Shown: positions 3-47,162, numbered from the stretch's first letter. The stretch is DNA of 64,000 nucleotides from Escherichia coli (GCF_029227855.1 NZ_CP074357.1); one strand, 5' to 3'. Translations and numbers: made by a program. The notes: generated from the sequence alone by a model not told the origin.

Positions 3-2396
<2,394 letters not shown>

Positions 2397-2531: not shown

Positions 2532-3407
2532 TCAACCTTGTTTGGCGAGGGCCAGCTTAGGGCTTCTTTTGAAGATCTGAAATTGTATGTCGCGACCTTT
2601 CTTAACTTCTTGATAATCGAGATATCCGATAGATTCAAGTTCCCGCATTGCTTTACGAATTATCTGGTTTTGCGTACGAATAGGGGTTGTAAGAAGCAAC
2701 CTTTCCCTCAACCGTTTCATATTAACGAACAACGTACCAGCTGGCATTGCTTCAAAATAAATATAGAGAGATTGCGCAGCTTCTTTTTTAGCCAAAATGT
2801 ATAGAACCTGAAGGCTTAACAATGTCTTATGGTCGTAACGATACAGTTCCCACATAGAAGGATCCCCAACCAACTCAACAGTATCGCTTTTTGGATCAAT
2901 CATAGCCTTCTGCACCAGATGCGTTACTGTGAACCGACCACTCCGAGAGTCTGAGAAGGCAAGCACTACCGATGCAAGGTTCATTAATGACTCTTTAAAG
3001 CGCGCACGAGTTCGTTTGTTGATGTTTGTTGAACTGATACCACACATCTTCGCAAACTCGTTAAAAGTCAGGGTAATCTTCTCGGAAGTAAAACCATATT
3101 TACTGAAAGCCATGATGATCCCGAGCCAGCACTTAAAGTCGGTAGACATAGATAGTTTGACACCAGTTATCTTGATGTCGTCATAACCCTCCGATCTTGC
3201 AATTTCCATACACGAAAGCTCATCAGAGGCATCAACTTCAAAGTTTCGGTCGCGGTTTTCTTTTGTGCCGACAGGGGTAAATACACTCAATCTCAACAGG
3301 GCCACGGGCTGAACCGACTTGGACGAGTTAGGCGTCAGTTGATAAGTCTTACCTGATTCATTACTGGTTACGTCAAAAGGATGGATTAACTCGTTGTTTT
3401 TAATCAT
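2532..3407 (-). CDS. repA: Iteron-binding replication initiator RepA (P1/RepFIB type)
   Basis: 291 aa; conserved blocks shared with recalled P1 RepA / F RepFIB RepA (TVQPVAL.RL.VF, DFK.W.GII, AQ.LY.YFE); iterons on both sides. Confidence 0.85.
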   Translation of the reverse strand: MIKNNELIHPFDVTSNESGKTYQLTPNSSKSVQPVALLRLSVFTPVGTKENRDRNFEVDASDELSCMEIARSEGYDDIKITGVKLSMSTDFKCWLGIIMAFSKYGFTSEKITLTFNEFAKMCGISSTNINKRTRARFKESLMNLASVVLAFSDSRSGRFTVTHLVQKAMIDPKSDTVELVGDPSMWELYRYDHKTLLSLQVLYILAKKEAAQSLYIYFEAMPAGTLFVNMKRLRERLLLTTPIRTQNQIIRKAMRELESIGYLDYQEVKKGRDIQFQIFKRSPKLALAKQG

Positions 3408-3563: not shown

Positions 3564-3606
3564 TCCTTTCATAAAGTCACTATAATCAATGAGTTAAAGA
3601 TGCCGT

Positions 3607-3654
3607 GATCTTTACTTGAACTCTATTGATCTTTAGTGATCTAAAGAATTGATC
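3607..3654. promoter_or_regulatory. Cluster of four TGATCT (GATC) repeats beside the origin iterons; P1 oriR-like Dam-methylation element
   Basis: GATC at 3607, 3628, 3638 and 3651 within 48 bp, each in a TGATCT context. Confidence 0.55.
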
Positions 3655-3883
3655 TATCCTGTTGAAAACAATGATAAGTCCATATAAAACAAGGAATAGC
3701 GCTCCTTTAACAATATCTACAGATCGCAAACGGAAATGAACGAGGGTCTACTATCATTGTTTTATTCAAGACAGTTTTTATTTTAATTTTATTAAGCAAA
3801 TTTTTTGAGTTTACCTTTTAGATGTATCAGCCCTATTTGGCAAATTTGAGGTTCATGTATCATGTAGTAAACAGGAGGAAGAT

Positions 3884-4939
3884 ATGAACAACAGCAAACA
3901 TACAGTCATTGAAGTGGATACTAATCTAGTTGAAATTGAAAAGGGATTTAATCCCCGAGAGGCGGTAATCGGAGATTTGTGTTACGAACAAGAACCTGTC
4001 AAGTCGATGATTGTGTCAATCAAACAAGCCTTTAAGGAAGGAAGGCAGGTTGATATGATCAAGGTCGTAAAAAGAAAAGGTAAATATTTAGTTCGTCAAG
4101 GTCATACTCGTTTTCATGGCTTAAAATTAGCAATTTCTGAAGGTGCTAATATTCCAAAATTATCTGTTATCCTAATCGATTATAAAAACGAAATTGAAGA
4201 ATACCTTGAGAACCTCGATGGTAACAGAAGCAATGGGCTAAATCCGGTTGGGCAAGCTCATGCATTAGCTCATGCTGTTAGTCTCGGGTATTCGGTTGAA
4301 GAACTAGCAATGCGATATCAACGATCAACTACCGCAATTCGTAATATGCTAAAAATCCTTGATATGCCATTAGAGCTTCAACATTTGATTAGCCTAAATC
4401 TAATCAAAAAAACGCTCGCCATTGAAATAATGTTAAAATATTCCAACGATCACAAAATGGTTTTAAAACATATAGAAGGTTTCTTACCTGGCGTTAAGAA
4501 TATTGAGACTACAACGAGCAAAATTGTAGGCATACCTGAACACAATGCAGCTGGAGCAGGACCAGACACCTTAAATAAAGGCGGACCAGAAAAGAAAAAT
4601 TCGGCAGTCACTCGTAAGACTTTGGGTATTAAGCGCCTCTCGCATAAGAAAACAGAACGGCTAAAATCTGAATTTCTTGAGCTTGTGGAAAGTACACATA
4701 CGGAATCTATAACGAATACTCAAACAGAACTAAAATTTGGTAGAGATAGTGCACACTTGTTCAAAAATGTTAATAGTAATAATGTAATATTTTCCAATGA
4801 TGGTGTTCAAATAATCTTGAATGATGAAAAGCTAAATATTTTATTGTCTTTACTTAACGACGAAAATACAGCAATCATTGTTTCTAAACCAAAATTAGAA
4901 GAGCTTCTGGAAATTCGAGATCTCCTTAAGGAATATTAA
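3884..4939 (+). CDS. ParB/KorB-like DNA-binding protein (ParB N-terminal domain plus HTH), paralog 1
   Basis: 351 aa; GFNPRE and VRQGHTRFHGLKLA (ParB-box-like) then HTH SVEELAMRYQRSTTAIRNMLKILDMPLELQ; RBS AGGAGG. Confidence 0.75.
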   Translation: MNNSKHTVIEVDTNLVEIEKGFNPREAVIGDLCYEQEPVKSMIVSIKQAFKEGRQVDMIKVVKRKGKYLVRQGHTRFHGLKLAISEGANIPKLSVILIDYKNEIEEYLENLDGNRSNGLNPVGQAHALAHAVSLGYSVEELAMRYQRSTTAIRNMLKILDMPLELQHLISLNLIKKTLAIEIMLKYSNDHKMVLKHIEGFLPGVKNIETTTSKIVGIPEHNAAGAGPDTLNKGGPEKKNSAVTRKTLGIKRLSHKKTERLKSEFLELVESTHTESITNTQTELKFGRDSAHLFKNVNSNNVIFSNDGVQIILNDEKLNILLSLLNDENTAIIVSKPKLEELLEIRDLLKEY

Positions 4940-4956: not shown

Positions 4957-5157
4957 GTGATTAAACCTATAAAGCTGACTCTTATCGATAATTATAGTGA
5001 TTTGCTTCTAACTCATGAAGTCCTTAAACGCAACATGGAAGAGTTAGAACACGGTAAACGTTTTGATCAATTTCCTGAAGGGCATGACCACTATGAAAAA
5101 ACTGTGAAAGAAGCTGTAGCAATCGTAGAGGCACGTTTGGAGGTGTTTCGAAAATGA
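4957..5157 (+). CDS. Hypothetical small protein
   Basis: 66 aa, GTG start, immediately downstream of the parB-like gene. Confidence 0.45.
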   Translation: MIKPIKLTLIDNYSDLLLTHEVLKRNMEELEHGKRFDQFPEGHDHYEKTVKEAVAIVEARLEVFRK

Positions 5158-5870
5158 AATCTCTTTTCTTTACTCTTGATGGTCATATGGTACCAGCCTC
5201 AGTGAATGTATCACTTAACGGAGATGGAAATTATTATGCACCTATCGAAAGAGAATGTAACGAATGTGCGGGCACAGGCCACAAAGGGGCTGATTTATGT
5301 GAAAAGTGTCATGGGGTACAAACAGTTGGACCCATTATTGAAAAATTAGTGGCACTAGAGCCAATTACCTTTCTCGATAACATTCCGGAACTGCGTGTTA
5401 ACCCAACACTCGAAGCATGGAAATCCAGAAACCACGTCCTTATTGAGAAAGCAAAAAAGGCTAACACTAAGTTTTCTAATAGTATATTGGCGCAATTAGA
5501 CAATAACCGTTTCTTGACAGAACGCCAGCTGGATTGTTTCTTTACAACTTTTGATGTGATGTTGTCTGAAACTCCGGAAAATGAACAAGAAATTTTAAAA
5601 CATAGCTACAATATCGGCCAGGTCATAAGCATTGAACTAACATTTACTGAAGTCAGGGCCGCGTACGCAAAAAGTAAAGGGAGTTATTTTTTTACATTTA
5701 CTGGTAAAGTTAGAAATGACGGGATCGCTTTAACGGCCGATAAACAGGATCACATTTTATTGGGTGAACGTTATCATTTGACTGGAAAAGTCAGAAAATT
5801 CTATGAATTTGATTCGAAAAATTATGCTGCAATAACAGTTTTTAAGTTAAATAAACTCCAAGACAGTTAA
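5154..5870 (+). CDS. Hypothetical protein with DnaJ-like CxxCxGxG zinc-finger motif
   Basis: 238 aa; CNECAGTGHKG...CEKCHG; ATGA overlap with the upstream ORF. Confidence 0.55.
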   Translation: MKSLFFTLDGHMVPASVNVSLNGDGNYYAPIERECNECAGTGHKGADLCEKCHGVQTVGPIIEKLVALEPITFLDNIPELRVNPTLEAWKSRNHVLIEKAKKANTKFSNSILAQLDNNRFLTERQLDCFFTTFDVMLSETPENEQEILKHSYNIGQVISIELTFTEVRAAYAKSKGSYFFTFTGKVRNDGIALTADKQDHILLGERYHLTGKVRKFYEFDSKNYAAITVFKLNKLQDS

Positions 5871-6101
5871 ATGTTTTTGCTGCTTAAATATAGAGCCAAG
5901 ACTTTAACTGTCGTTAGGACTCACTCACGTAATATTGTTGCTTACGCAATGGGTTTTATCCCTCATAAAGATCTGCGAGTATAAATCTTTTACATTTAAA
6001 TTCTCCTCTATCAGAACCTTTTCTATTGTAAAAAAATGATAATCTTATTAATTATAATTTTAATTTTTTGTATACCAATACCATACAGTTAAGGCTAAAA
6101 G

Positions 6102-6959
6102 GTGATGATGGAGATGGACTTTAAAATGCACAATGATCTGGGTCTCGGTTTCATTTGTAAAAATGCAAGAACATCGTCAAAGCCAACGTTAAGAAAAGTT
6201 ACTTTTCCGGTAAGCGCATATGAAACGTCTAAGCTTTCTTTAACCGGTTTTCAATGCCCCACAGCCTGCCGTTTTCCTTTTTTTGTGCTATGCATGATAA
6301 TCCATAACCATCTTTCGTCTGCATGCCCTATCACCCAAAATGAATGTTCAAATCATATCTCGCAATTTTCTATCGACATTAAAGTACAAGATTGGCTTAG
6401 CCGTTCAAGAGTAGCGTTTATTGATTTCCATAATCTTAGAAATACAGATAAAGCCACTTTAATAACAGTGAACCATCTTGAAGCTTTACTTACTGTTATG
6501 TCGACTACTCTTGTCGCTTATGTTCCATATTCAAAAAAGAGACTAAACTTTAGCTTTCTAAACTCATTCACTTTGTCTAAAACTTCTCAAAGTTACACAT
6601 TAACTTTCCCGGTAGTTCTCAGTCCGCTTTTAGATGCTCTTGGCGACTTCATTCAGGAATGCATAACCGAAAAATTGTTAAAACGACGAAATTCGAATTT
6701 CATGGTTTACGAGTATCTTAAACGTTCAGGCCAGAGCTCTCATAAAGTGGAGGACATTAATAACGACTTACAGCTTAAAAGTCTAAATATAAGACTTATG
6801 AGCGTCCTTACTGGCCTTTCTCAGCAAGGACTCATTTCATTTATTTGCGAAGGAAAGAGGGGCGACCGGAGAATAGAAGAGCTTCAGTTTATACCTTATG
6901 TTCAACGAACTTACCCTGAGGTATTAACTTTTGAGGAATGGATTAGCCCAGTTGATTAG
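6102..6959 (+). CDS. Hypothetical protein; convergent partner of the Dam-like methyltransferase
   Basis: 285 aa ORF in an AT-rich region, RBS present; contains palindrome copy 6194-6206 so the true start may be internal (Met at 6294). Confidence 0.45.
   Translation: MMMEMDFKMHNDLGLGFICKNARTSSKPTLRKVTFPVSAYETSKLSLTGFQCPTACRFPFFVLCMIIHNHLSSACPITQNECSNHISQFSIDIKVQDWLSRSRVAFIDFHNLRNTDKATLITVNHLEALLTVMSTTLVAYVPYSKKRLNFSFLNSFTLSKTSQSYTLTFPVVLSPLLDALGDFIQECITEKLLKRRNSNFMVYEYLKRSGQSSHKVEDINNDLQLKSLNIRLMSVLTGLSQQGLISFICEGKRGDRRIEELQFIPYVQRTYPEVLTFEEWISPVD
6194..6206. repeat. Copy of dispersed 13-bp palindrome AAAAGTTACTTTT
   Basis: Exact copy, inside the annotated 5' part of ORF 6102-6959. Confidence 0.6.
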
Positions 6960-6967
6960 AATTTACT

Positions 6968-7801
6968 CTATTTCAGCACGGCCAGTATTTCTGTTTCCGT
7001 TTTCCGTGTATTCGGCTTACTTCCTACGGATCGGTAAGCGCTGAGTCTGTGTATGACGAATCCACGCTCTTCATAGAGGCCCAAAGTGAATGATGTCAGG
7101 CTATTTGATATCGCAACAGCAGCGCCTTTTCTGTGAGCGTCAACGAGCATATTTGCTAACAGCACGTGGTCGCTTTGGCTGAACGGTTTACCATCGTAAC
7201 TGACAAAACTAGTTTTGCTTGTTTTGTCATATGGCGGATCACAGTAAATCTGATCTCCTTCACCGGTTGCGGCCAGAGTCTCCTCAAAACCAGCGGTGAT
7301 CAGTTCAATACCTGAAAGACGAAATGAAAGGTAGTCTATTTTATTGAGGTCAAGCTTCAGTTCTGTATGTTTCCCCCACGGCACTGAATAGATTCTTTCT
7401 GAGTTATAGCGGCACATACCGTTATAGCCCAGGCGATTCAGGGAGTAAAACAAAGCCGCTCTTTGAAGCGATTGACCAGAAATACAGGTTTTGTTGAAAC
7501 GGTCCCTCATCTCATAGTAGTCCTTTTCGACAAAGGTTTTATCCGCCAAGTTTTGGACCTGATTTATAAAGTTAGTTTTCTGTCTTTGAATAGTCCTGTA
7601 TAGGTTGATCAAGTCTGGATTGCTATCTGCAAGCAATGCATTTTGTGCAAACATGTTCAGAAAAACGGCACCACCGCCTATAAAGGGTTCTACCCACCGG
7701 CAACTATGATCGTGTGGGTAGTGATGGCTGATGAAAGGCATCAGTTTCGTTTTTCCACCAGCCCATTTGATTATCGGCATGTGTCTGAGATGTCGAGTCA
7801 A
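6968..7801 (-). CDS. Dam-family N6-adenine DNA methyltransferase (alpha class)
   Basis: 277 aa; IIKWAGGK, EPFIGGGAVF (motif I), CDPPY (motif IV), NRLGYNGMCRYN; near-colinear with recalled E. coli Dam. Confidence 0.9.
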   Translation of the reverse strand: MTRHLRHMPIIKWAGGKTKLMPFISHHYPHDHSCRWVEPFIGGGAVFLNMFAQNALLADSNPDLINLYRTIQRQKTNFINQVQNLADKTFVEKDYYEMRDRFNKTCISGQSLQRAALFYSLNRLGYNGMCRYNSERIYSVPWGKHTELKLDLNKIDYLSFRLSGIELITAGFEETLAATGEGDQIYCDPPYDKTSKTSFVSYDGKPFSQSDHVLLANMLVDAHRKGAAVAISNSLTSFTLGLYEERGFVIHRLSAYRSVGSKPNTRKTETEILAVLK

Positions 7802-8056
7802 AGTGTCTATACCTGAGAGAGAAATTTAGGTGCTGGTATCGTACCTAACCACGGGCTTTAACTAATAACTTAGGGAGCAAAAAAAAGTTGTTTAAGACGC
7901 ACAGTTTTGACTTTCAGCATTTCGGATTTATAAGATTTTTCCTCACTTATACCTGAACTTTATGTTTTGGATTTATGTATTTGTTTATGAAGCGATTTTT
8001 ATGCCATCACAAGTAATGGGGAGCCACCTTTTTTTGTAAAAAATCAGAATAGGCTC

Positions 8057-8069
8057 AAAAAGTACCTTT
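8057..8069. repeat. Variant copy of dispersed palindrome (AAAAGTACCTTTT)
   Basis: One mismatch to consensus; 93 bp upstream of parB-like gene 8150. Confidence 0.45.
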
Positions 8070-8149
8070 TTTGCGAAAAATTATGAATTTTTTTTTCGGT
8101 AGTATCCCCGCTACGCAGAAAGTAAGCAGAAAAATGTAACGGAGCCCCT

Positions 8150-9313
8150 ATGAGTGTTTTACTGACAGAACCTACACAGCAAGCTAATGACAAGGTCTTT
8201 AAAACGGCCCATGTTGCCTTTTCAGTAGTTACTGGCACAGGCCGTTACGTCACTGGGCTTAAACAGTTCCGTGATGCAAACCCTGAACTTTGTACTGAAG
8301 TAAGTGACCAGAAAGCATGGGCTATCCACCCTTCAGTAATTCAGGTCACGCCAGGCTTCAACTCCCGCGAAATGGGAATGGGTGACGATTACTATAAGCT
8401 CCCTGAGGTTGAAGAACACATCTACAACATCAAGAATGCCTACATTCGAGGTGACTATGTAGACCCTATCCGAGTACGTGTCATTGATGGGGTACCTTTT
8501 GTTCGCCAGGGGCACTGCCGTTTAAAAGCCGCAATGATGGCATGTGATGAAGATCATGACATCACAATCCTTTGCGTTGAGATTAAAGAAGATGAAATTG
8601 GCTGTGAGCTCGCGACCATTGATGGTAACCGTGGTCTTGCGCTTTCTCCTGTTGCGCTTGGCGAGTCCTATCGTCGCCTACATTCTCTTGCTGGCTGGTC
8701 ACTCGAACGAATTGCTCAACGTGAAAATAAAAGCCCGACGACCATCAGTTCTCTTATCCGCCTGACAACCTGTTCTGTTGTTATCAAGAAATGGATTCAT
8801 GCTGACGCTATTTCGTATGTTAACGTGCTTTCACTGATCGATGAGCTCGGCGAAACAGAAGCAATTTCACGTATCAAGAAGATGATCGCAGAACTTGAGC
8901 AGGCCGATGCGAATGGCATCACGGTGAAAAAAACCCAACATGGTCAGGTACGAGTCAGACCTTCAGACTTCAAGCCAGCACGGATTCCGCCGGTTATTGC
9001 CACAAAAGCCGTAGAAGGCGTCAAACTCATCACCACCAGCTTATTACAGAAACTGGGGGATATTGAATTGCCGGAGCTGACAGATTCAAGTGCTGACGAA
9101 GAAATCAACATTACGTTGAACCGCAGTACTCTGGAGATGTTGAGAAATCTTTCAAAAGAGATCACAGAATCAGAGAACAAGCAGCTTCGCCGTGCGGAGA
9201 ATCGTCAGGCAAAACTTAATGGTGAGAAGCCAAAATACCCACGTAAAAAAAATGCTAAGAAGGCAGGGGAAGAGACCGATCAGGATACTGACCCACAGCC
9301 GGACGCAGAATAA
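8150..9313 (+). CDS. ParB/KorB-like DNA-binding protein, paralog 2
   Basis: 387 aa; GFNSRE and VRQGHCRLKAA, HTH LERIAQRENKSPTTISSLIRL; acidic C-terminus. Confidence 0.75.
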   Translation: MSVLLTEPTQQANDKVFKTAHVAFSVVTGTGRYVTGLKQFRDANPELCTEVSDQKAWAIHPSVIQVTPGFNSREMGMGDDYYKLPEVEEHIYNIKNAYIRGDYVDPIRVRVIDGVPFVRQGHCRLKAAMMACDEDHDITILCVEIKEDEIGCELATIDGNRGLALSPVALGESYRRLHSLAGWSLERIAQRENKSPTTISSLIRLTTCSVVIKKWIHADAISYVNVLSLIDELGETEAISRIKKMIAELEQADANGITVKKTQHGQVRVRPSDFKPARIPPVIATKAVEGVKLITTSLLQKLGDIELPELTDSSADEEINITLNRSTLEMLRNLSKEITESENKQLRRAENRQAKLNGEKPKYPRKKNAKKAGEETDQDTDPQPDAE

Positions 9314-9560: not shown

Positions 9561-11252
9561 ATGTCATCTCTTGATTCTGAAGCTAAACCCGATAATGCAG
9601 GTCACAGCGTACTGGCTTTAACAACCTCTCATAGCCTGGTGGTTAGCTCTCCTGAAACATTTCTTCCAGATATGCGCAAAGAGCTCGGCATTATCGCGGA
9701 TCTTGTTGAGTCCTATAATGATGAACTCTGCTTGTTGAAACTCATGGCTGTCCAGTTCAAAACCCACAATCACCAGAAACTTTATTCTTATCTCTCAGGC
9801 TACAACCACAGCATCTCAGAAGCGGATGCTTTGTTCGCAGAAAACGCTCTGAGATCAGAATACTGGAAACGCGTTATGGCACTCACTGATGTTTTGCCTA
9901 TCATGTCGGATGCCAAACGTAACGAATGGGATAAGCAGTTTACGGCCGACCGTTATATTATGCCGCCTCAGGTGATCCCTGATTTCACAGCTGACGCTGT
10001 AGTGGGCACAGTCGTTGCTTTGCTTAATGACCGCAATCAATTTATTAAAGAAAGGGTTTACGACGTCTTCCAGTCTCTGAGCCGCAGTCACAAGACAAAC
10101 AAAGCTTTTGGGTTCTCCACCCGCATGATCACTACCGGAGTTTGCGAGCCGTCTAAATACCCCTGGCAGAAATTAAGGGTGGATTTTAAAGAGTCTGGCA
10201 TTTCACCGCTGAGCGAGCTCCGCGTTATATGCGCATTCTTCCGTGGCGAACAGGTGAAGGCGATCCATAACACCAAATCATTGGTTGAGGCGTTGGTCGA
10301 ACATGAGGGGTTCAGAAAATGGATCTGCATCGATGGCAACAGTATTCGTTTCAGGGTTTACAAAAATGGATCAATGCATATTGACGTCCACCCTGATATC
10401 GCCGAGCGGCTTAACAATATTTTATCAGCTATCGTACCGCTGGCATTACCTGCCGACCGTATGGCTCATAGCAAGAAATCTTTGGAGGCATTCCCTGTAC
10501 TTAAGCAGTGCATCGACTTTGATACCCGGATGCAGCTTTCTGAACTGATGTTTAAAAATGACGGGGACAATAAATGGAGTTGCTGGACATCTTTAGGGTC
10601 TCTCGCCGAACGCAAATCTTCGAGTGTTGCCGCTGACACCCTTCGGTTCTTAGGGGCAACAGTAACAAAATACGATGTGACATTTTCCTATGATCCGTGT
10701 GAGGTTATTCGTTACATCGGCCAGATAGGGGAGATGCCTGATATTGTATCGCATCAGTTTTACCCTTCATCTTGCCGAATCAGCGAATATGTATCTTCCC
10801 TGCTTGGTGCAGGGGAAGGGGATACCCTCCTGGAGCCTAATATTGGCCATGCGGATTTGCTTAAATCATTCCCTGCCGGTGTGATCGTTACTGGCATCGA
10901 GCTTGATACTTTGAATTGCCTTATCTCCCGGGCTAAGGGATACGATACGACAGAAGCTGACTTCCTCACATGGTCTAAGTCTAATCAACAGAAGAAGTTT
11001 GATTATGTCGTGATGAACCCACCTTTTGCCGATAACCGGGCCAGGCTGCATCTCCAGGCAGCTGCATCTCATCTCGCAGCCGGGGGATCTCTAGCAGCCG
11101 TTCTTCCATTATCTCTTCAGGGGCTCGATAACCTTTTGGGGGAAGAATTCCGGACGGAATGGATGGACGTTTTTGAGAACGAGTTTGAAAACACGACCGT
11201 TTCGGTTCGCATCCTGTACGCCGAACGTATTCAACAAGAGGAAGTCCTATGA
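9561..11252 (+). CDS. N6-adenine-type DNA methyltransferase with large N-terminal domain
   Basis: 563 aa; C-terminal catalytic region with EPNIGHADLL (motif I-like) and VVMNPPF (motif IV); paralogous to the MTase domain of 28362-29186. Confidence 0.75.
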   Translation: MSSLDSEAKPDNAGHSVLALTTSHSLVVSSPETFLPDMRKELGIIADLVESYNDELCLLKLMAVQFKTHNHQKLYSYLSGYNHSISEADALFAENALRSEYWKRVMALTDVLPIMSDAKRNEWDKQFTADRYIMPPQVIPDFTADAVVGTVVALLNDRNQFIKERVYDVFQSLSRSHKTNKAFGFSTRMITTGVCEPSKYPWQKLRVDFKESGISPLSELRVICAFFRGEQVKAIHNTKSLVEALVEHEGFRKWICIDGNSIRFRVYKNGSMHIDVHPDIAERLNNILSAIVPLALPADRMAHSKKSLEAFPVLKQCIDFDTRMQLSELMFKNDGDNKWSCWTSLGSLAERKSSSVAADTLRFLGATVTKYDVTFSYDPCEVIRYIGQIGEMPDIVSHQFYPSSCRISEYVSSLLGAGEGDTLLEPNIGHADLLKSFPAGVIVTGIELDTLNCLISRAKGYDTTEADFLTWSKSNQQKKFDYVVMNPPFADNRARLHLQAAASHLAAGGSLAAVLPLSLQGLDNLLGEEFRTEWMDVFENEFENTTVSVRILYAERIQQEEVL

Positions 11253-28268: not shown

Positions 28269-28361
28269 TTCTGTTCACTCTTTATTGATTTAGTCAGTTA
28301 AGCCGGTCAGGTAACTTTAACCGGCTACTCGTATTAAGATTTCTTTCCGGTTGCTTGTCAG

Positions 28362-29186
28362 TTAGCGGCGAAGATCAATTTCAAGGCGGGCTGTTTTGAC
28401 CTTTGTTCCGGACTCCCTAAATGTATCATCCGGAAGAGGCGAAATTTGTCCGCCAAGTTGTTTGACTCGCTCCCTGAGCGCTTTTGTCAGTGTGTCTTCC
28501 CGGAACAATACCCCAGCTGACAGAATGGCCTGTAAGCGACCTCGCTTAGCGAGCATTGCGATGGCATGCATGACATGTTTAACGTCAGAGCGTTTAAGGA
28601 ATGGTGGATTCATAACGATAACATCAAAAGTTTCATCGGGCTGGTACCCAAGAAAGTCGGTATGCACCAGCTCGGCCCCTGTGCTAAGGACACTATCGTT
28701 CTTCACTGCAAGGAATCGCTCATCGTTCAATTCGATCCCGGTAATCAATGCATCCGGAGCCGCCAGTTTTAAGGCTTTCAGAATGCGGCCATCACCAAAC
28801 TCAGGCTCCAGAACACGTTCCCCGGCAGCTGGTTCAGCGCGTAGAACCATATCTGTGACTAAATTCTCAGGGGTAGGGAAGAAATTGAACAAATCACGTG
28901 GGATGTCGACCGAACCTGTCAGAATGATTTGCTCGATACGCTCAGCTGCATCCGCCGTAAAAATATGTGCCTGCTCTTTTCGGTTCCATTTGCCACCGGC
29001 AGCTTCCAGCACTTTGTTTGTCTTAACATAAATGCTGCGGTCGAGCTGGTCGGCCAGGAAAAGAAAGTTCCCTTCAGCACGGCAGCGAGATAAGACGTTC
29101 AGAACTTCAGTTGAGATTTGCATTAAAACTCCATTAAGAGGATTTACCCGCCTGGCGGCAGCGGGTTGGTTACTTAAACAGGACAA
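28362..29186 (-). CDS. N6-adenine-type DNA methyltransferase (NPPF motif)
   Basis: 274 aa; LEPEFGDGRILK (motif I-like), DVIVMNPPF (motif IV); paralog of the C-terminal domain of 9561-11252. Confidence 0.78.
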   Translation of the reverse strand: MSCLSNQPAAARRVNPLNGVLMQISTEVLNVLSRCRAEGNFLFLADQLDRSIYVKTNKVLEAAGGKWNRKEQAHIFTADAAERIEQIILTGSVDIPRDLFNFFPTPENLVTDMVLRAEPAAGERVLEPEFGDGRILKALKLAAPDALITGIELNDERFLAVKNDSVLSTGAELVHTDFLGYQPDETFDVIVMNPPFLKRSDVKHVMHAIAMLAKRGRLQAILSAGVLFREDTLTKALRERVKQLGGQISPLPDDTFRESGTKVKTARLEIDLRR

Positions 29187-42653: not shown

Positions 42654-42823
42654 TTTGCAAAAATGAATATTAATCCTGAACAATATTAATTTAAGATGAG
42701 GTGGTGTTCATATTCTTCTTAATATTTTTTCTAAAAAAACGACTTCAGGTTATTAGTTGGTAGTAGTGTGTTTGTTATGATCTTCTCATCAAATACATTA
42801 ATTAAATAATCAAGGAGTCAACT

Positions 42824-43615
42824 GTGGCAGATAATTATACTCTGGCGTCGTTTATTATTCCCTGCACTCAGGAGCAGGCTAAAATGGCACAAGAAGCAAT
42901 CACATTCGTTACCGAAGCAGAAATTGCAGAAGGTGAGCGTTTGCTTGATAAGCCACTGGCAGATTGTTCTCTGACTGAGAAGCTGATTCTCAGTATTATT
43001 GAGAACCACCCTGAGTATGACCCTTCAGAGCCGAGCTTTGGGCAACCATCCTGCCCAGACTGTAATTATGAACTGTCGTTCGCAACAGAAGTTAACAGCA
43101 GTGGGCTGTCAGTTTTTCATGGAGAGACTATTGATCTTGACCATGCAATTTGCCTCACAACTGCCGTGCTGTCGGTATTCGACCTCCCGGAAATGGTAAC
43201 AATTACTGCTGCATTTACATGCAGTAAAAGCCGGACAGATGAATTTGGGGGTATGACTATTCTGGTCACAAAGGATACCCACTATTACCAGGATGGCTGT
43301 CAGTTTTCTCGTCTCATGAATGAGGCTCACAAAGCCGGTATCCAGTATGCTCTGTGTAAAGTGACGCATTACCACGGTGAGAGCAGCTATGTGGCAAGCT
43401 ATGTCCTGAGCTGCGACGTAGCGGATTCAGCCCAGGAGGTCGTTAACAGACGACTGAAGGCATGTGCCGGAAAAGAGCCAGAAGACGGAATCTATATTCT
43501 GAGTGAAGAAGACAACACCAGTCTTTCGGTCGAACTCGTTACAGAACTGTCTCCGCTCGATTACGACAAGCTGAGCAAGCTTCTTCCTTCCCTTGACACC
43601 CTTTGCGGCGCATAA
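42824..43615 (+). CDS. Hypothetical protein
   Basis: 263 aa; RBS AAGGAG. Confidence 0.5.
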   Translation: MADNYTLASFIIPCTQEQAKMAQEAITFVTEAEIAEGERLLDKPLADCSLTEKLILSIIENHPEYDPSEPSFGQPSCPDCNYELSFATEVNSSGLSVFHGETIDLDHAICLTTAVLSVFDLPEMVTITAAFTCSKSRTDEFGGMTILVTKDTHYYQDGCQFSRLMNEAHKAGIQYALCKVTHYHGESSYVASYVLSCDVADSAQEVVNRRLKACAGKEPEDGIYILSEEDNTSLSVELVTELSPLDYDKLSKLLPSLDTLCGA

Positions 43616-43666
43616 GCCTGCCTGATAACCGTAGCCACCGGTTCCCCCGGTGGCCTGGAGCCTGCC

Positions 43667-44116
43667 ATGACCAATAAATTCATAGTATCTACCGTTGTTT
43701 GCATCAATGACTTTGCAAGTGATGTTCCGCAAAGTGTTTCCTTACGGATAGATACAATGCTTGAACAGCGTATCCGCAAATTGGCGACATACGTGAAAAA
43801 AAACGATCTTCAGTTAACTGAGTTTTACTTCTATGACGCTAACTGGTCATTTTGTGGTGAAGATGAAATTCAAGAAATAACAGACCAGGATGAATATAAG
43901 CATAGCGATAGCACAAGGCAGGAAGCGATGCTGCGGGAAGTAATGCCATCAGCACGTACGGAATGCCCGGTTATTAGGGTGATGAAAGATTCATTTCAGC
44001 TTTCTGCTCTACCACGCCATTGTGGTGATGACATGACTCTTAACACTCCTTCAATTCCGCTGTCTGAGTTGAAAACAAATGTCACGGCTTTTATTACACC
44101 ACCAACCTATATCTAA
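43667..44116 (+). CDS. Hypothetical protein
   Basis: 149 aa. Confidence 0.5.
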   Translation: MTNKFIVSTVVCINDFASDVPQSVSLRIDTMLEQRIRKLATYVKKNDLQLTEFYFYDANWSFCGEDEIQEITDQDEYKHSDSTRQEAMLREVMPSARTECPVIRVMKDSFQLSALPRHCGDDMTLNTPSIPLSELKTNVTAFITPPTYI

Positions 44117-44288
44117 TAGCTGTGCTGGGAGATTAAATTACAATGGGTTTTTATTTTAAATCTATTTAAGAATTAAATTTGCGTGATTTTGATTTAATAT
44201 AATTTCGCTAAATGGTTGCGCTGTAGTTATTTTAAAGTTCTAATAAAAATATCAGTGATGCAGCATATGCCGTGGTTCAGGAAAATAT

Positions 44289-46673
44289 ATGTTTATTGAA
44301 AAAAGTGACTCATTCCTTGAATTACCCTCAGAAGTTATTTTTCCTGAGGCGGCTAATGCTGCCATTTTGAAACATGATAAATGGGCTGATGTTTGGGAGA
44401 CCCTGACAACCGATGCCGATCTGAACTATACCGATGAAAAGGAGACTGTGAGTCTTTCTTCTCTGGTCACGTCAGCCACATCTGCTATTTATCAGGCTAT
44501 TACGGACGGATGGACGATGTGCGTGGGATACAGTGGCGGTAAAGACTCCCATTCTCTTCTTCACCTATTTCTGATGGCATTGATCAGGGCAGTACGTAAC
44601 GGCACAAATATCAGCGAACATCATTTCATTCAGATGTCCGATACGCTGATCGAAAACCCTGAGATGCACTATCAGGCTTCACAGGTTCTCAACCAGCTTA
44701 GAATGTTCATTGCTGAACACCAGCTACCGGTCACAGTCCTTGTCGCCCAACCGTCTCTTACGCAGAGCTGGGTAGGCCGCATTCTGACTGGACGTGGACT
44801 TCCGACCTGGACTAATTCTTCAACCCGTCAGTGCTCAACCGACTACAAAATCGCCCCCCTGCGCAAGGCCAAAGCTCGTTATCTAAAAAACGCCCCGGCA
44901 TCCGTACGAAGCAGGGTATGCCTGATGCTGGGCTCCAGGGATGATGAAAGTGCCCGAAGGGCCGGAAATATCCTCAAAATGGGAGGGCAGGCGAGGAAAG
45001 TAACCCTGACTGAGCACGGTGGTGAACTCTATCCAGTAAAGGAGTGGCGCACTCAGGACATCTGGTCTTTTCTAATGGCCTGTGGTTCCGAATCCCGCTT
45101 CCCTTTACCAAGCTTTATGCCGGATAACTTCAGCCTGGCAACGCTTTATAAAGACGCCACCGGAGAGTGTATCTGGTCGCCGGAGAAACCCACGCGAACC
45201 TCAGCTTGTGGGGCTAGATATGGGTGCTCGCTTTGCACAGCCGTAGGGGTTGACCATTCAATGGAAACGCTCCTTCGCACTGACCCTGAGAAATATGGTT
45301 ATCAGGCAGGCCTAAGTCGTCTTCAGCGATTTCTTTCTAAGATCCAGTACGACTGGAGCCTGCGGGATTATATCGGTCGTAAAGTGTTCGAAGGCGGGTA
45401 TGTGCGTCTTCAACCCAATATCTTTTCTTCGTCCCTGACTGAACGTCTTTTTCATGTCTGTTGCAGCCTTGATTATGTTGAAGCCAGACGTGCGGCAAAG
45501 CATCGCAGAAAGCTACTTTCCGGCGAGGTGGACGATACGGCTTATAACCGTCGTATGGCTGAGCCACAATTTCGGCTTGTACATGAAGCAAACGTGATCC
45601 ACGTTGATTTCCTCTGGTCGTTGCACTGTTTCAACCCTCGCCCGTTTCGGGCAATTGAGATCTATCGCAGAGTCTGGGAAGAGGCCGATCTGGACCTTCT
45701 TGAGGATGAGCCTGACATGCTGCCTGTGGCCCGTACACCAATGCCAGCTCCACTCTGGATGAAACTGCCCGGAGGCCGGTTCGGTACAGCTTATGATGGA
45801 CTGACTGATACGTTGCCGCTGATGACCTATTTTGACGGGCAGGCTGACCCCAGGGCTTCACGTAGCCTAAAGACCGGAGAGAGCAGTTCTGTCGTCGTGG
45901 CATTCGAGGAAGAGGATGAGCTGACTGTTGAAGAAGATACGGCGTCCTGGATTATCTGGCATGAATACGACGGGTTACGCCAGAGCATCGCTGACGGTGA
46001 GTTTACTCCAACGACTGCTGCTCAGTATCTTCTTCGTTATGGCGCGGTCCGAATTTCAAAAGGGAAGGGCGCTGTCTATCATCGTCTCGCACAACGGGGA
46101 CAAACCTTTTCCCGCCTGGGGATAGGCGAAAGAGTGTCGCTTCCAGAGCTGGTTGCCAGTCGGCGTTTTAAAATACTCAGCGATACTGCATACCGTCAGG
46201 TTGTAGCCCGGAAATTGCGTGGACAGATAAAAAAGTTCAGATTCTGGGCATGCGTAGCTGCCTGTGTACAGTTGCACGTACACAACAAGACGGCACTCGG
46301 AGAAAGAATCTTAACGTTACTCGAAGGTGAGAGGGAACAGCAACAAGGTGCGATCCAGGCGAAGCTGAAGGCGGGAATGATGGATGCAGTTCTAACTCTG
46401 TGTAACCAGCGACTCCGGGTGAAAGAAAATACTAACCAGCCAGAGGAGTTCCGCTATTACCGTGCCGTAAGAGCTCGTTTCATGCGCCATTTATCTGAAT
46501 GCCTTAAGCCAGAAAATGGCGGCGTTATCCGTGACGTTATCTGGGAACTGAGGGTGCTGAGCAGTGCTCACGGTACGACCAAAACAGGTTTTTACTATGT
46601 CGATAGCAATCGCCCGACAGCGAAAGGACTGTTAAACCGCCTTCTGATGAGGATGGTCAGGCAGGTCGTATAA
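44289..46673 (+). CDS. PP-loop ATP-pyrophosphatase superfamily protein (PAPS-reductase / DndC-like) with long C-terminal extension
   Basis: 794 aa; PP-loop CVGYSGGKDSH; Cys cluster ACGARYGCSLC; C-terminal roughly 450 aa unassigned. Confidence 0.7.
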   Translation: MFIEKSDSFLELPSEVIFPEAANAAILKHDKWADVWETLTTDADLNYTDEKETVSLSSLVTSATSAIYQAITDGWTMCVGYSGGKDSHSLLHLFLMALIRAVRNGTNISEHHFIQMSDTLIENPEMHYQASQVLNQLRMFIAEHQLPVTVLVAQPSLTQSWVGRILTGRGLPTWTNSSTRQCSTDYKIAPLRKAKARYLKNAPASVRSRVCLMLGSRDDESARRAGNILKMGGQARKVTLTEHGGELYPVKEWRTQDIWSFLMACGSESRFPLPSFMPDNFSLATLYKDATGECIWSPEKPTRTSACGARYGCSLCTAVGVDHSMETLLRTDPEKYGYQAGLSRLQRFLSKIQYDWSLRDYIGRKVFEGGYVRLQPNIFSSSLTERLFHVCCSLDYVEARRAAKHRRKLLSGEVDDTAYNRRMAEPQFRLVHEANVIHVDFLWSLHCFNPRPFRAIEIYRRVWEEADLDLLEDEPDMLPVARTPMPAPLWMKLPGGRFGTAYDGLTDTLPLMTYFDGQADPRASRSLKTGESSSVVVAFEEEDELTVEEDTASWIIWHEYDGLRQSIADGEFTPTTAAQYLLRYGAVRISKGKGAVYHRLAQRGQTFSRLGIGERVSLPELVASRRFKILSDTAYRQVVARKLRGQIKKFRFWACVAACVQLHVHNKTALGERILTLLEGEREQQQGAIQAKLKAGMMDAVLTLCNQRLRVKENTNQPEEFRYYRAVRARFMRHLSECLKPENGGVIRDVIWELRVLSSAHGTTKTGFYYVDSNRPTAKGLLNRLLMRMVRQVV

Positions 46674-46778
46674 GCGTCTGAAACGCGAAACACACGAAAA
46701 TGAAGGGGTTATACAAAAAAAACTTAGCTTTGATCGTGATGTAATGTGGACATCATGTCCAAGCGTTGCTGCATCCAG

Positions 46779-46791
46779 AAAAGTAACTTTA
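46779..46791. repeat. Copy of dispersed palindrome (AAAAGTAACTTTA)
   Basis: 144 bp upstream of gene 46923. Confidence 0.55.
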
Positions 46792-46922
46792 ATCCTGTTG
46801 ATACAGCCTTTGCATTACCTGTTTACGCATAGCCTGGAAACGTTCTAATTAAACCAGACAAATATAAATTTAAATTAATTCACTCACCCCCGGAATCGGG
46901 GAACTAAACAAAAGGATCATCA

Positions 46923-47162
46923 ATGCAAAATCAAAATACCCCCGCTCAGGAAAAACACACCGTATACCTTTTTAATGCTGAACATGCTGACAAGACAGCC
47001 GCCAAGCAAGCCGGGAAACTCTTCACGCTGGACATTGAACACCCAATGACCCTCAACGATCTCTCGCTGCTGTGTGAGTCGGTCGCGGACGCTGTGGGAG
47101 CACCTGGCGGTATTAAATATGAAATCACAACAGAGCCTAATGGGGTTCAGGAGGAATACTGA
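46923..47162 (+). CDS. Small conserved protein, family member 1 (paralog of 52127-52351)
   Basis: 79 aa; shared block D.E.PMTLNDLS.LC.S.A.AVG.PGG.KY. Confidence 0.6.
   Translation: MQNQNTPAQEKHTVYLFNAEHADKTAAKQAGKLFTLDIEHPMTLNDLSLLCESVADAVGAPGGIKYEITTEPNGVQEEY

What the first reader, a model, noticed from the sequence alone, without database searches (positions are those of the whole stretch)
6102..7801. Dam-family methyltransferase convergent with an unassigned 285-aa ORF: orphan anti-restriction methylase or cryptic GATC-type R-M pair?
ORF 6968-7801 is an unambiguous Dam-family enzyme (KWAGGK, EPFIGGGAV, DPPY). Enterobacterial hosts already encode Dam, so a plasmid copy is likely either an anti-restriction/epigenetic orphan, possibly tied to the GATC-dependent origin nearby, or the methylase of a Type II system. 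The convergent neighbour 6102-6959, ending 8 bp from the methylase stop, is a long ORF in an AT-rich island with no recognisable family, and is about the size of DpnII/MboI-class endonucleases; that size match is recalled, not verified. A copy of the dispersed palindrome lies inside its annotated 5' end.
Basis: inference. Interest (0 to 1): 0.6.

Follow-up and report, generated by a model that had tools for sequence, protein, structure and literature searches.

The report
Orphan Dam methylase beside Rep-fold protein
This gene pair on the backbone of IncHI2 resistance plasmids is not a restriction-modification system: it is a solitary GATC (Dam-type) DNA methylase next to a previously unclassified DNA-binding protein whose predicted fold is that of plasmid replication initiators, so the finding is mostly ordinary with one modest new annotation.

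Summary
Both ORFs are real, at the stated coordinates, and convergent with 8 bp between their stop codons. The window is IncHI2 plasmid backbone, 100% identical to pAPEC-O1-R, and the stretch occurs in 1,113 PLSDB plasmids.

ORF 6968-7801 is a Dam-family methyltransferase (PF02086, TIGR00571). It keeps the GATC-contact and catalytic residues of E. coli Dam. Its likely start is ATG 7780.

The 285-aa ORF is a real gene under strong purifying selection, but it is not a nuclease. A confident AlphaFold model (pLDDT 83) matches tandem winged-helix replication initiators (RepA, RepE, RctB, TrfA) in three fold searches. No restriction-enzyme fold or profile matched.

The pairing is conserved down to 30% identity, but so is the whole surrounding block: Rep3 origin, two ParB-like genes and a second methyltransferase. 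Published data on the R27 orthologs (R0040, R0041) show the block can be deleted without loss of stability, and that both genes are induced in the transfer-derepressed htdA mutant.

The "dispersed palindrome" is real: AAAGTNACTTT occurs 15 times against 0.06 expected. One copy lies inside the gene and is its most conserved DNA segment.

Verdict: orphan Dam plus a cryptic Rep-fold DNA-binding protein; the R-M reading is rejected; the two genes' specific roles are unresolved.

The parts
6126..6959 (+). Gene for a 277-aa protein (the ORF extends to GTG 6102; PGAP start is 6105). Predicted tandem winged-helix (Rep-like WH1-WH2) DNA-binding protein. Ortholog of R27 R0040; WP_000970402.1.
   Evidence: ORF. 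Homologs at 28-88% identity. pN 0.24 against pS about 0.8. AlphaFold pLDDT 83.2, pTM 0.83. Fold matches to RepA, RepE, RctB and TrfA.
6193..6207 (.). Copy of the dispersed palindrome GAAAAGT-T-ACTTTTC, lying inside the coding sequence across codons R-K-V-T-F-P.
   Evidence: 15 copies against 0.06 expected. It sits inside the longest nucleotide run identical in three orthologs, 17 nt at 6193-6209, next longest 11 nt. It is nucleotide-identical in L002 and L003.
6960..6967 (.). 8-bp spacer between the two convergent stop codons; no convincing terminator.
   Evidence: No terminator-like site here. Fold z-score is -1.24.
6968..7780 (-). Dam-family N6-adenine DNA methyltransferase, 270 aa from ATG 7780 (the ORF extends to TTG 7801). 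Ortholog of R27 R0041.
   Evidence: PF02086 at E 1.2e-48. TIGR00571 at 228 bits against a cut-off of 115. Matches E. coli Dam and DpnM structures at E 1e-40. K9, Y119, N120, R124, N126, P134 and DPPY are conserved.
3604..3658 (.). Context: array of four TGATCT repeats in the RepHI2A origin region, beside AAATGC iterons.
   Evidence: TRF period-10 repeat GTGATCTTTA x3.7. Six GATC sites in 476 bp against 1.4 expected, with the same spacing in the R27 RepHI1A origin.
2532..3407 (-). Context: RepHI2A, a Rep3/RepB-family replication initiator.
3884..4939 (+). Context: ParB-like protein 1 of the conserved block.
   Evidence: phrog_1033 at E 7e-25. PF17762 HTH_ParB.
5154..5870 (+). Context: protein with a DnaJ-type CxxCxGxG zinc finger, immediately upstream of the Rep-fold gene.
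8150..9313 (+). Context: ParB-like protein 2, ortholog of R27 R0042, which is highly expressed.
   Evidence: phrog_1033 at E 3e-28. PF17762. R27 expression data.
9561..11252 (+). Context: second solitary DNA methyltransferase (DUF4942, NPPF motif).
   Evidence: phrog_6263 at E 1.6e-112. Annotation.

Best explanation
The pair is not a restriction-modification system.

The minus-strand gene encodes a solitary (orphan) Dam-family methyltransferase that most probably methylates GATC. The plus-strand gene encodes a sequence-orphan protein built from two winged-helix domains arranged as in iteron-type plasmid replication initiators (WH1-WH2). It is a DNA-binding protein with no catalytic nuclease module.

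Both genes belong to a larger block that is conserved on all IncHI-type plasmids, right beside the RepHI origin. The block reads: Rep3 initiator, then an origin with iterons and a GATC repeat array, then ParB-like gene, 66-aa gene, zinc-finger gene, Rep-fold gene, Dam (convergent), a second ParB-like gene, and a second methyltransferase.

Shown here: family membership of the methylase; coding status of the partner; its predicted fold; the synteny; and a conserved operator-like palindrome inside the gene.

Shown by others for the R27 orthologs: the block is dispensable for plasmid stability, is expressed at low level in vegetative growth, and is strongly induced when the transfer regulon is derepressed.

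Inferred: the module works around conjugative transfer and establishment. The methylase would keep plasmid GATC sites, including the origin array, methylated independently of the host. The Rep-fold protein would bind plasmid DNA, probably as a dimer, as an accessory regulator of replication or transcription and not as an essential initiator.
For: - Methylase: PF02086 and TIGR00571 well above cut-off. 33.5% identity to E. coli Dam, with K9, Y119, N120, R124, N126, P134 and DPPY conserved.
- Partner is a real gene: homologs down to 28% identity; pN 0.24 against saturated pS, in the N-terminal part as well.
- No restriction-enzyme hit in Pfam, PADLOC, NCBIfam or PDB sequences.
- The whole block is syntenic in R27, L003, L005 and L007.
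- R27 deletion Del1 removes R0037-R0042 and the plasmid is viable and stable (PMC4853401).
- In the R27 htdA mutant at 25 C, R0040 rises 18.6-fold and Dam 7.8-fold (PMC7366339 Table S4).
- Natural plasmids carry IS2 inside the Rep-fold gene, or an IS903B clipping the Dam 3' end.
- Orphan methyltransferases, some annotated as dam, are reported on all the large (>90 kb) conjugative plasmids in one study (PMC11602122).
Against: - No biochemical data exist for either protein from this plasmid.
- No iterons lie beside the gene, so the DNA target is unknown.
- Derepression in the htdA mutant affects 139 of 181 expressed R27 genes, so co-induction is not specific.
- Enterobacterial hosts already methylate GATC, so the selective benefit of a plasmid Dam is unexplained. 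A dam knockout on another plasmid, pKAZ3 (which carries a second dam gene), had no protective effect against the restriction systems tested.
- The block is not adjacent to the relaxase end of the plasmid, so a classical leading-region anti-restriction role is doubtful.
Confidence: 0.72

Rival explanations
1. Cryptic Type II R-M pair. The 285-aa protein is a methylation-sensitive GATC endonuclease (DpnII/MboI-like or a new fold) and the Dam-family enzyme is its cognate methylase.
For: Tight convergent arrangement, 8 bp apart, conserved from IncHI2 to relatives with 30% identity. DpnM, the methylase of the DpnII system, is among the closest solved relatives of the methylase. PADLOC scores 'MTase_II' and 'orphan MTase' models almost equally.
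Against: - The confident model is fully accounted for by an N-terminal hairpin plus two winged-helix domains, and no nuclease fold appears among significant matches in three fold searches.
- No hit to DpnII (PF04556) or any restriction-enzyme model.
- The conserved linkage is that of a whole backbone block, not of the pair alone.
- Photorhabdus carries an intact partner next to a Dam with an in-frame TAG stop.
- One relative replaces most of the partner and Dam with an unrelated methylase.
- GATC is not depleted in the plasmid: 236 found against 240 expected.
Confidence: 0.03
2. The Rep-fold protein is a true additional replication initiator, or a methylation-dependent origin factor in the manner of RctB on Vibrio cholerae chromosome 2. 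It would act on the GATC-array origin nearby, and the adjacent Dam would supply the methylation it needs.
For: The fold is that of iteron initiators, with RctB domains 2-3 as the top Foldseek-PDB hit. The gene lies 2.7 kb from the RepHI2A gene. A GATC repeat array is positionally conserved in the RepHI2A and RepHI1A origins and is present as 6 repeats in L007. Dam is always the convergent neighbour. That RctB binding depends on Dam methylation is established knowledge, recalled and not tested here.
Against: No iterons flank the gene. There is no sequence homology to Rep3. Deletion of R0037-R0042 in R27 leaves a stable, replicating plasmid, although R27 has other replicons. L005 shows no GATC array near its rep gene. 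IS2 disruption of the gene is tolerated in a natural plasmid.
Confidence: 0.12
3. The Rep-fold protein is the transcription factor that recognises the dispersed palindrome AAAGTNACTTT. It would be a global regulator of IncHI backbone promoters and would autoregulate through the copy inside its own gene. Dam would be an unrelated neighbour.
For: The palindrome is about 250-fold over-represented. It sits mostly 90-220 nt upstream of gene starts, often in pairs. It is conserved in every IncHI-like relative. One copy is the most conserved DNA stretch inside the gene. Dimeric Rep proteins such as RepE act as repressors on inverted repeats; 2z9o is among the best matches.
Against: The motif sequence is unchanged in L007, where the protein is only 28-30% identical. 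Two ParB/KorB-like proteins with HTH domains in the same block are at least as good candidates for a compact 13-bp palindrome. In L013 the gene is destroyed yet palindromes persist. There is no direct binding evidence.
Confidence: 0.15

Closest known systems
E. coli Dam / DpnM (D12-class, alpha-group N6-adenine GATC methyltransferases; PF02086, TIGR00571), and solitary dam genes of large conjugative plasmids
   Same: Full-length match, catalytic DPPY, AdoMet-binding FxGxG, N-terminal KWAGGK, and the GATC-contact residues K9, Y119, N120, R124, N126 and P134. No adjacent nuclease, as for orphan plasmid methylases.
   Different: Only 33.5% identical to host Dam. It falls below the PRK10904 equivalog cut-off (169 against 441 bits), so it is a distinct plasmid lineage. 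L122 is Met. It is not in an obvious leading region. It is induced with the transfer regulon in R27.
Iteron-type plasmid replication initiators with tandem winged-helix domains (pPS10 RepA, F RepE, R6K pi, RK2 TrfA, V. cholerae RctB domains 2-3)
   Same: Predicted WH1-WH2 architecture of about 270 aa. The best structural matches in PDB and AFDB are these proteins. Plasmid-borne and close to a replicon.
   Different: No detectable sequence or profile homology. No adjacent iterons. An extra N-terminal beta-hairpin. The orthologous block is dispensable in R27. The family is confined to IncHI-type plasmids.
DpnII/MboI Type II R-M systems (GATC)
   Same: A Dam-family methylase next to a gene of about 280 aa; convergent genes are common in R-M systems.
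   Different: The partner has no DpnII-family signature and no nuclease fold. Linkage is explained by backbone synteny. The partner persists beside a Dam carrying a stop codon.
KorB/OB operator network of IncP plasmids (relevant to the palindrome only)
   Same: A compact palindrome of about 13 bp dispersed at many promoter-proximal sites of a large conjugative plasmid that encodes ParB-family HTH proteins.
   Different: Different sequence. The binding protein is not identified. One copy lies inside a coding region. The analogy is recalled from knowledge of RK2 and was not tested.

Membership tests
Dam family (D12-class N6-adenine DNA methyltransferase, GATC) | Full-length match to the family profiles above the curated threshold | tested here: met
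   PF02086 at E 1.2e-48 over residues 13-258. TIGR00571 at 228.1 bits against a cut-off of 114.85.
Dam family (D12-class N6-adenine DNA methyltransferase, GATC) | Catalytic DPPY motif and AdoMet-binding FxGxG motif | tested here: met
   D181-P-P-Y184, and EPFIGGGAV with F35 and D54 equivalents, are conserved in the alignment to E. coli Dam.
Dam family (D12-class N6-adenine DNA methyltransferase, GATC) | Residues that contact the GATC bases in the E. coli Dam-DNA structure | tested here: met
   K9, Y119, N120, R124, N126 and P134 are identical; L122 is Met. The list of contact residues is from memory of the published Dam-DNA structure.
Dam family (D12-class N6-adenine DNA methyltransferase, GATC) | Methylation of GATC demonstrated | not testable with these tools
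   Needs a DpnI/MboI digestion or a methylome of DNA from a dam-minus host expressing the gene.
Type II restriction-modification system (DpnII/MboI type) | The adjacent gene encodes a protein with a nuclease fold (PD-(D/E)xK, HNH, PLD or GIY-YIG) | tested here: not met
   The model (pLDDT 83.2) consists of tandem winged-helix domains, and no nuclease appears among significant PDB or AFDB matches.
Type II restriction-modification system (DpnII/MboI type) | Sequence homology of the partner to a known restriction-enzyme family | tested here: not met
   No Pfam (including DpnII), PADLOC or NCBIfam hit. The only PHROG hit is a non-significant 'HNH' at E 0.098.
Type II restriction-modification system (DpnII/MboI type) | The partner never persists without an active cognate methylase | tested here: inconclusive
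   Photorhabdus has an intact partner and a Dam with an in-frame TAG stop. However, host Dam could protect the DNA, and a sequencing error is not excluded.
Iteron-type Rep initiators (RepA / RepE / pi / TrfA / RctB core) | Tandem winged-helix WH1-WH2 fold | tested here: met
Iteron-type Rep initiators (RepA / RepE / pi / TrfA / RctB core) | Sequence or profile homology to a Rep family (for example PF01051 Rep3) | tested here: not met
   No Pfam hit for any of the 12 members. hhalign against the plasmid's own RepHI2A gives probability 0.2%.
Iteron-type Rep initiators (RepA / RepE / pi / TrfA / RctB core) | Iterons or an origin adjacent to the gene | tested here: not met
   Only chance-level two-copy repeats between 5600 and 8300.
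Iteron-type Rep initiators (RepA / RepE / pi / TrfA / RctB core) | Required for replication of the replicon | tested here: inconclusive
   From the literature only: R27 lacking R0037-R0042 is viable and stable, but R27 carries other replicons.
Leading-region anti-defence orphan methyltransferases | Located in the first-transferred region next to oriT, on the strand transcribed early | tested here: inconclusive
   The block lies beside RepHI2A and Tra2. The relaxase is about 54 kb away in the reference record. oriT was not mapped here.

The most novel reading that the evidence does not exclude
All IncHI plasmids carry a dedicated epigenetic replication or establishment module. In this reading a cryptic Rep-fold protein reads Dam-methylated DNA, for example the conserved GATC array of the RepHI origin, in the manner of RctB on Vibrio chromosome 2. 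The convergent plasmid Dam supplies that mark, and both are switched on with the transfer regulon so that replication is licensed in donor or new recipient cells independently of host Dam.
Probability: 0.1. Interest if true: 0.65.

Novelty: new member of a known kind. Interest (0 to 1): 0.3.

Why it matters
IncHI2 and IncHI1 plasmids are major vehicles of multidrug, colistin (mcr) and typhoid resistance, and about two thirds of their backbone genes have no assigned function.

Removing the R-M hypothesis prevents a mis-annotation. Assigning a replication-initiator-like fold to a hypothetical protein present on more than a thousand sequenced plasmids gives a concrete, testable handle on a conserved block next to the origin. 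The block also holds two solitary methyltransferases and two ParB-like proteins.

The palindrome found in passing may be the operator of an undescribed plasmid-wide regulon.

None of this overturns current understanding. The methylase itself is already correctly annotated.

Tried and rejected
- Sequence searches of the 285-aa protein against Pfam, NCBIfam, PADLOC, PHROGs and PDB sequences, singly and as a profile, gave nothing significant.
- An exhaustive search of 1.84 billion representative proteins and a profile search of the 5.8 billion-cluster (90% identity) protein collection found only IncHI-type relatives.
- hhalign against the plasmid's own Rep3 initiator was negative.
- I looked for iterons and terminators around the pair and found none.
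- No Rfam family lies between 3300 and 9600.
- GATC is neither depleted nor enriched across the window.
- I first read the Photorhabdus Dam as frameshifted from the ORF list. tblastn showed a single in-frame TAG stop instead, so I corrected this.
- Full-text searches for the palindrome sequence found no relevant paper. The IncHI comparative-genomics preprint does not mention the methylase.
- I considered an internal start at Met65, as in some 221-aa database entries. I rejected it because the first 56 codons show the same purifying selection as the rest and fold into the model.

Full report
**What is there.** Two convergent ORFs occupy 6102-6959 (+, 285 aa) and 6968-7801 (-, 277 aa), with 8 bp between their stop codons. 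The stretch 5800-8200 is 100% identical to pAPEC-O1-R. It occurs at 95% identity or more in 1,113 PLSDB plasmids, typed IncHI2A / MOBH / MPF_F, from Escherichia, Salmonella, Enterobacter, Klebsiella and others. RefSeq annotates the pair as 'hypothetical protein' WP_000970402.1 and 'Dam family site-specific DNA-(adenine-N6)-methyltransferase'. The region is AT-rich as stated: the ORF is 37.8% GC, the upstream spacer 29.8%, and the window 46.2%.

**The methylase.**
- It matches PF02086 (E 1.2e-48), TIGR00571 (228 bits against a cut-off of 115), and the solved E. coli Dam and DpnM structures (E about 1e-40).
- In a global alignment it is 33.5% identical to E. coli Dam. It keeps K9, Y119, N120, R124, N126, P134 and D181-PPY; L122 is Met. 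GATC specificity is therefore the well-supported inference, but it is not demonstrated.
- Family profiles begin at residues 7-8 of the long ORF, and one PGAP record starts the gene at ATG 7780 (MPIIKWAGGK).
- Another PGAP call, at 7741, deletes the conserved KWAGGK motif and is probably wrong.

**The partner is a real gene.**
- Homologs at 57-88% identity exist. An exhaustive HMMER scan found further relatives at 47%, 41% and 30% identity, and nothing else.
- Against orthologs in L002, L003 and L005, synonymous sites are saturated (pS 0.77-0.84) while pN is 0.24-0.39.
- The first 56 codons behave like the rest of the gene.
- Most homologs start at the Met corresponding to 6126.

**The partner is not a nuclease.**
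- An AlphaFold2 model built on a 12-sequence alignment is confident: pLDDT 83.2, pTM 0.83.
- It consists of an N-terminal beta-hairpin, a helix/sheet domain, a long linking helix, and a C-terminal winged helix with a GKRG wing tip.
- Foldseek against the PDB ranks RctB domains 2-3 (E 1e-4), dimeric RepE on operator DNA (6e-4), MSBI1.176 WH1 and pPS10 RepA WH1 first.
- Against AFDB50, after the family's own members, the hits (E 5e-7 to 2e-5; 211 hits at E 1e-3 or below) are mostly RepFIB RepA, RepA, RepB-family, RepC, TrfA and 'Initiator Rep protein WH1' proteins, the rest being uncharacterised proteins.
- No restriction-enzyme fold appears. No DpnII or other restriction-enzyme profile matches in Pfam or PADLOC.
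- Similarity to Rep proteins is structural only. There is no Pfam Rep hit, and hhalign against the plasmid's own Rep3 initiator (2532-3407) gives probability 0.2%.
- No iterons flank the gene.

**Linkage.** The convergent pairing with a Dam gene holds in R27 (IncHI1), L003, L005, and the 30%-identity relative L007. But so does the whole block: Rep3 initiator, ParB-like gene, about-66-aa gene, zinc-finger gene, Rep-fold gene, Dam, ParB-like gene, DUF4942 methyltransferase, small ORF, Ig-like protein. The linkage is therefore backbone synteny, not evidence for a two-gene system. Natural variants decouple the two genes:
- IS2 interrupts the Rep-fold gene with Dam intact in pN18S0236-1.
- IS903B clips the Dam 3' end in pSSE-ATCC-43845.
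- Photorhabdus has an intact partner beside a Dam with one in-frame TAG stop.
- In one metagenomic relative, the first ~89 residues of the partner are fused to an unrelated PF01555 methylase at the same backbone slot.

**Published experiments on the orthologs.** In R27 the genes are R0040 (partner) and R0041 (Dam).
- Deletion Del1 (40,355-46,955; R0037-R0042 and part of R0043) gave a viable plasmid with no significant loss of stability (PMC4853401).
- Microarrays show low expression in wild type: R0040 at 168 and 213 units, and R0041 at 80 and 144 units, at 25 and 37 C respectively.
- The htdA (transfer-derepressed) mutant at 25 C shows strong induction: R0040 18.6-fold and R0041 7.8-fold. However, 139 of 181 expressed genes are derepressed in that mutant (PMC7366339).

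**DNA features.**
- The 'dispersed palindrome' is real. AAAGTNACTTT occurs 15 times in the window against 0.06 expected.
- It lies mostly 90-220 nt upstream of gene starts and often in pairs.
- It is the top palindrome in every IncHI-like relative examined.
- The copy at 6193-6207 overlaps the invariant RKVTFP codons. It falls within the longest nucleotide run identical in three orthologs (17 nt, next longest 11), even though synonymous sites are otherwise saturated. This points to a DNA-level constraint on top of the protein-level one.
- The RepHI2A origin has four TGATCT repeats (3607-3654) whose spacing is conserved in the R27 RepHI1A origin. L007 has six GATCT repeats at 11-bp spacing. L005 shows no such array.
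- GATC frequency over the window is at chance: 236 against 240.

**Interpretation.** The R-M reading is rejected (about 3%). The best-supported account is a solitary Dam-family GATC methylase plus a cryptic Rep-fold DNA-binding protein. Both are members of a transfer-co-regulated, non-essential IncHI backbone module next to the origin.

What each does remains inferred. Two live alternatives for the Rep-fold protein are a methylation-linked origin factor (about 12%) and the binder of the dispersed palindrome (about 15%). For the palindrome, the two ParB/KorB-like proteins in the block are at least equally good candidates. The rationale for a plasmid Dam in Dam-positive hosts is unresolved. Orphan methyltransferases, some annotated as dam, are reported on all the large (>90 kb) conjugative plasmids in one study, and a dam knockout on pKAZ3 (which carries a second dam gene) showed no protective effect there (PMC11602122).

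**Novelty and score.** The methylase is already known and correctly annotated. The fold assignment for the partner is new but modest: a sequence-orphan family, confined to IncHI plasmids, joins the winged-helix Rep-like structural class without passing the sequence, iteron or essentiality tests for being an initiator. Interest is low to moderate (0.3).

Noticed in passing
window 2411, 6195, 16138, 16203, 24374, 26598, 32315, 33350, 37519, 41731, 46780, 49511, 51718, 60157, 60283: The palindrome AAAGTNACTTT (often extended to GAAAAGTNACTTTTC) occurs 15 times against 0.06 expected. Most copies are 90-220 nt upstream of gene starts, and pairs lie upstream of an Ig-like gene (start 16370) and a 394-aa gene. 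The same motif is the top palindrome in R27-like and more distant IncHI-like loci. A sequence search of the literature found no relevant paper. It is a candidate operator of a plasmid-wide regulator (a ParB/KorB-like protein, TrhR/TrhY/HtdA, or the Rep-fold protein).
   Followed up: partly
window 3604-3658 (also L010 4554-4603; L007 2416-2480): An array of four TGATCT repeats lies beside AAATGC iterons in the RepHI2A origin. The spacing is the same in the R27 RepHI1A origin. L007 has six GATCT repeats at 11-bp spacing. This suggests a Dam/SeqA-sensitive unwinding region.
   Followed up: partly
window 7741-7801: Public start-site calls for the methylase are inconsistent. WP_001424501.1 starts at 7741 and lacks the conserved KWAGGK motif. 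WP_001121575.1 starts at ATG 7780 and keeps it. The ORF itself extends to TTG 7801.
   Followed up: yes
L013 1446-2645: A metagenomic relative carries a chimeric gene: the first ~89 residues of the Rep-fold protein are fused to a PF01555 (N6/N4) methyltransferase at the same backbone position. This suggests methylase swapping at this slot, but it rests on a single short-read contig, so an assembly artefact is not excluded.
   Followed up: partly
L002 4773-5585: The Photorhabdus tasmaniensis contig has a full-length Dam ortholog (69% identity) with a single in-frame TAG stop at codon 160, next to an intact Rep-fold gene and an IS inserted just upstream. This is either a recent pseudogene or a sequencing error.
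   Followed up: partly
window 9561-11252 (and a further 'methyltransferase' at L008 27056-27817, roughly window 28360-29120): The plasmid carries additional solitary DNA methyltransferases. The DUF4942 protein matches phage DNA methyltransferase family phrog_6263 (E 1.6e-112) and has an NPPF motif.
   Followed up: no
window 3884-4939 and 8150-9313: Two paralogous ParB-like proteins (HTH_ParB, phrog_1033) flank the gene pair. The R27 ortholog of the second (R0042) is one of the most highly expressed plasmid genes and is induced under all transfer-promoting conditions.
   Followed up: partly
window 63-2016: An IS100 (IS21-family istA/istB) copy abuts the backbone at 2017, where reference IncHI2 plasmids carry trhA/trhL/trhE. 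The IS100 copy present at another position in the reference is absent from the corresponding place in the window. This indicates an IS-mediated rearrangement that may affect the Tra2 operon.
   Followed up: partly
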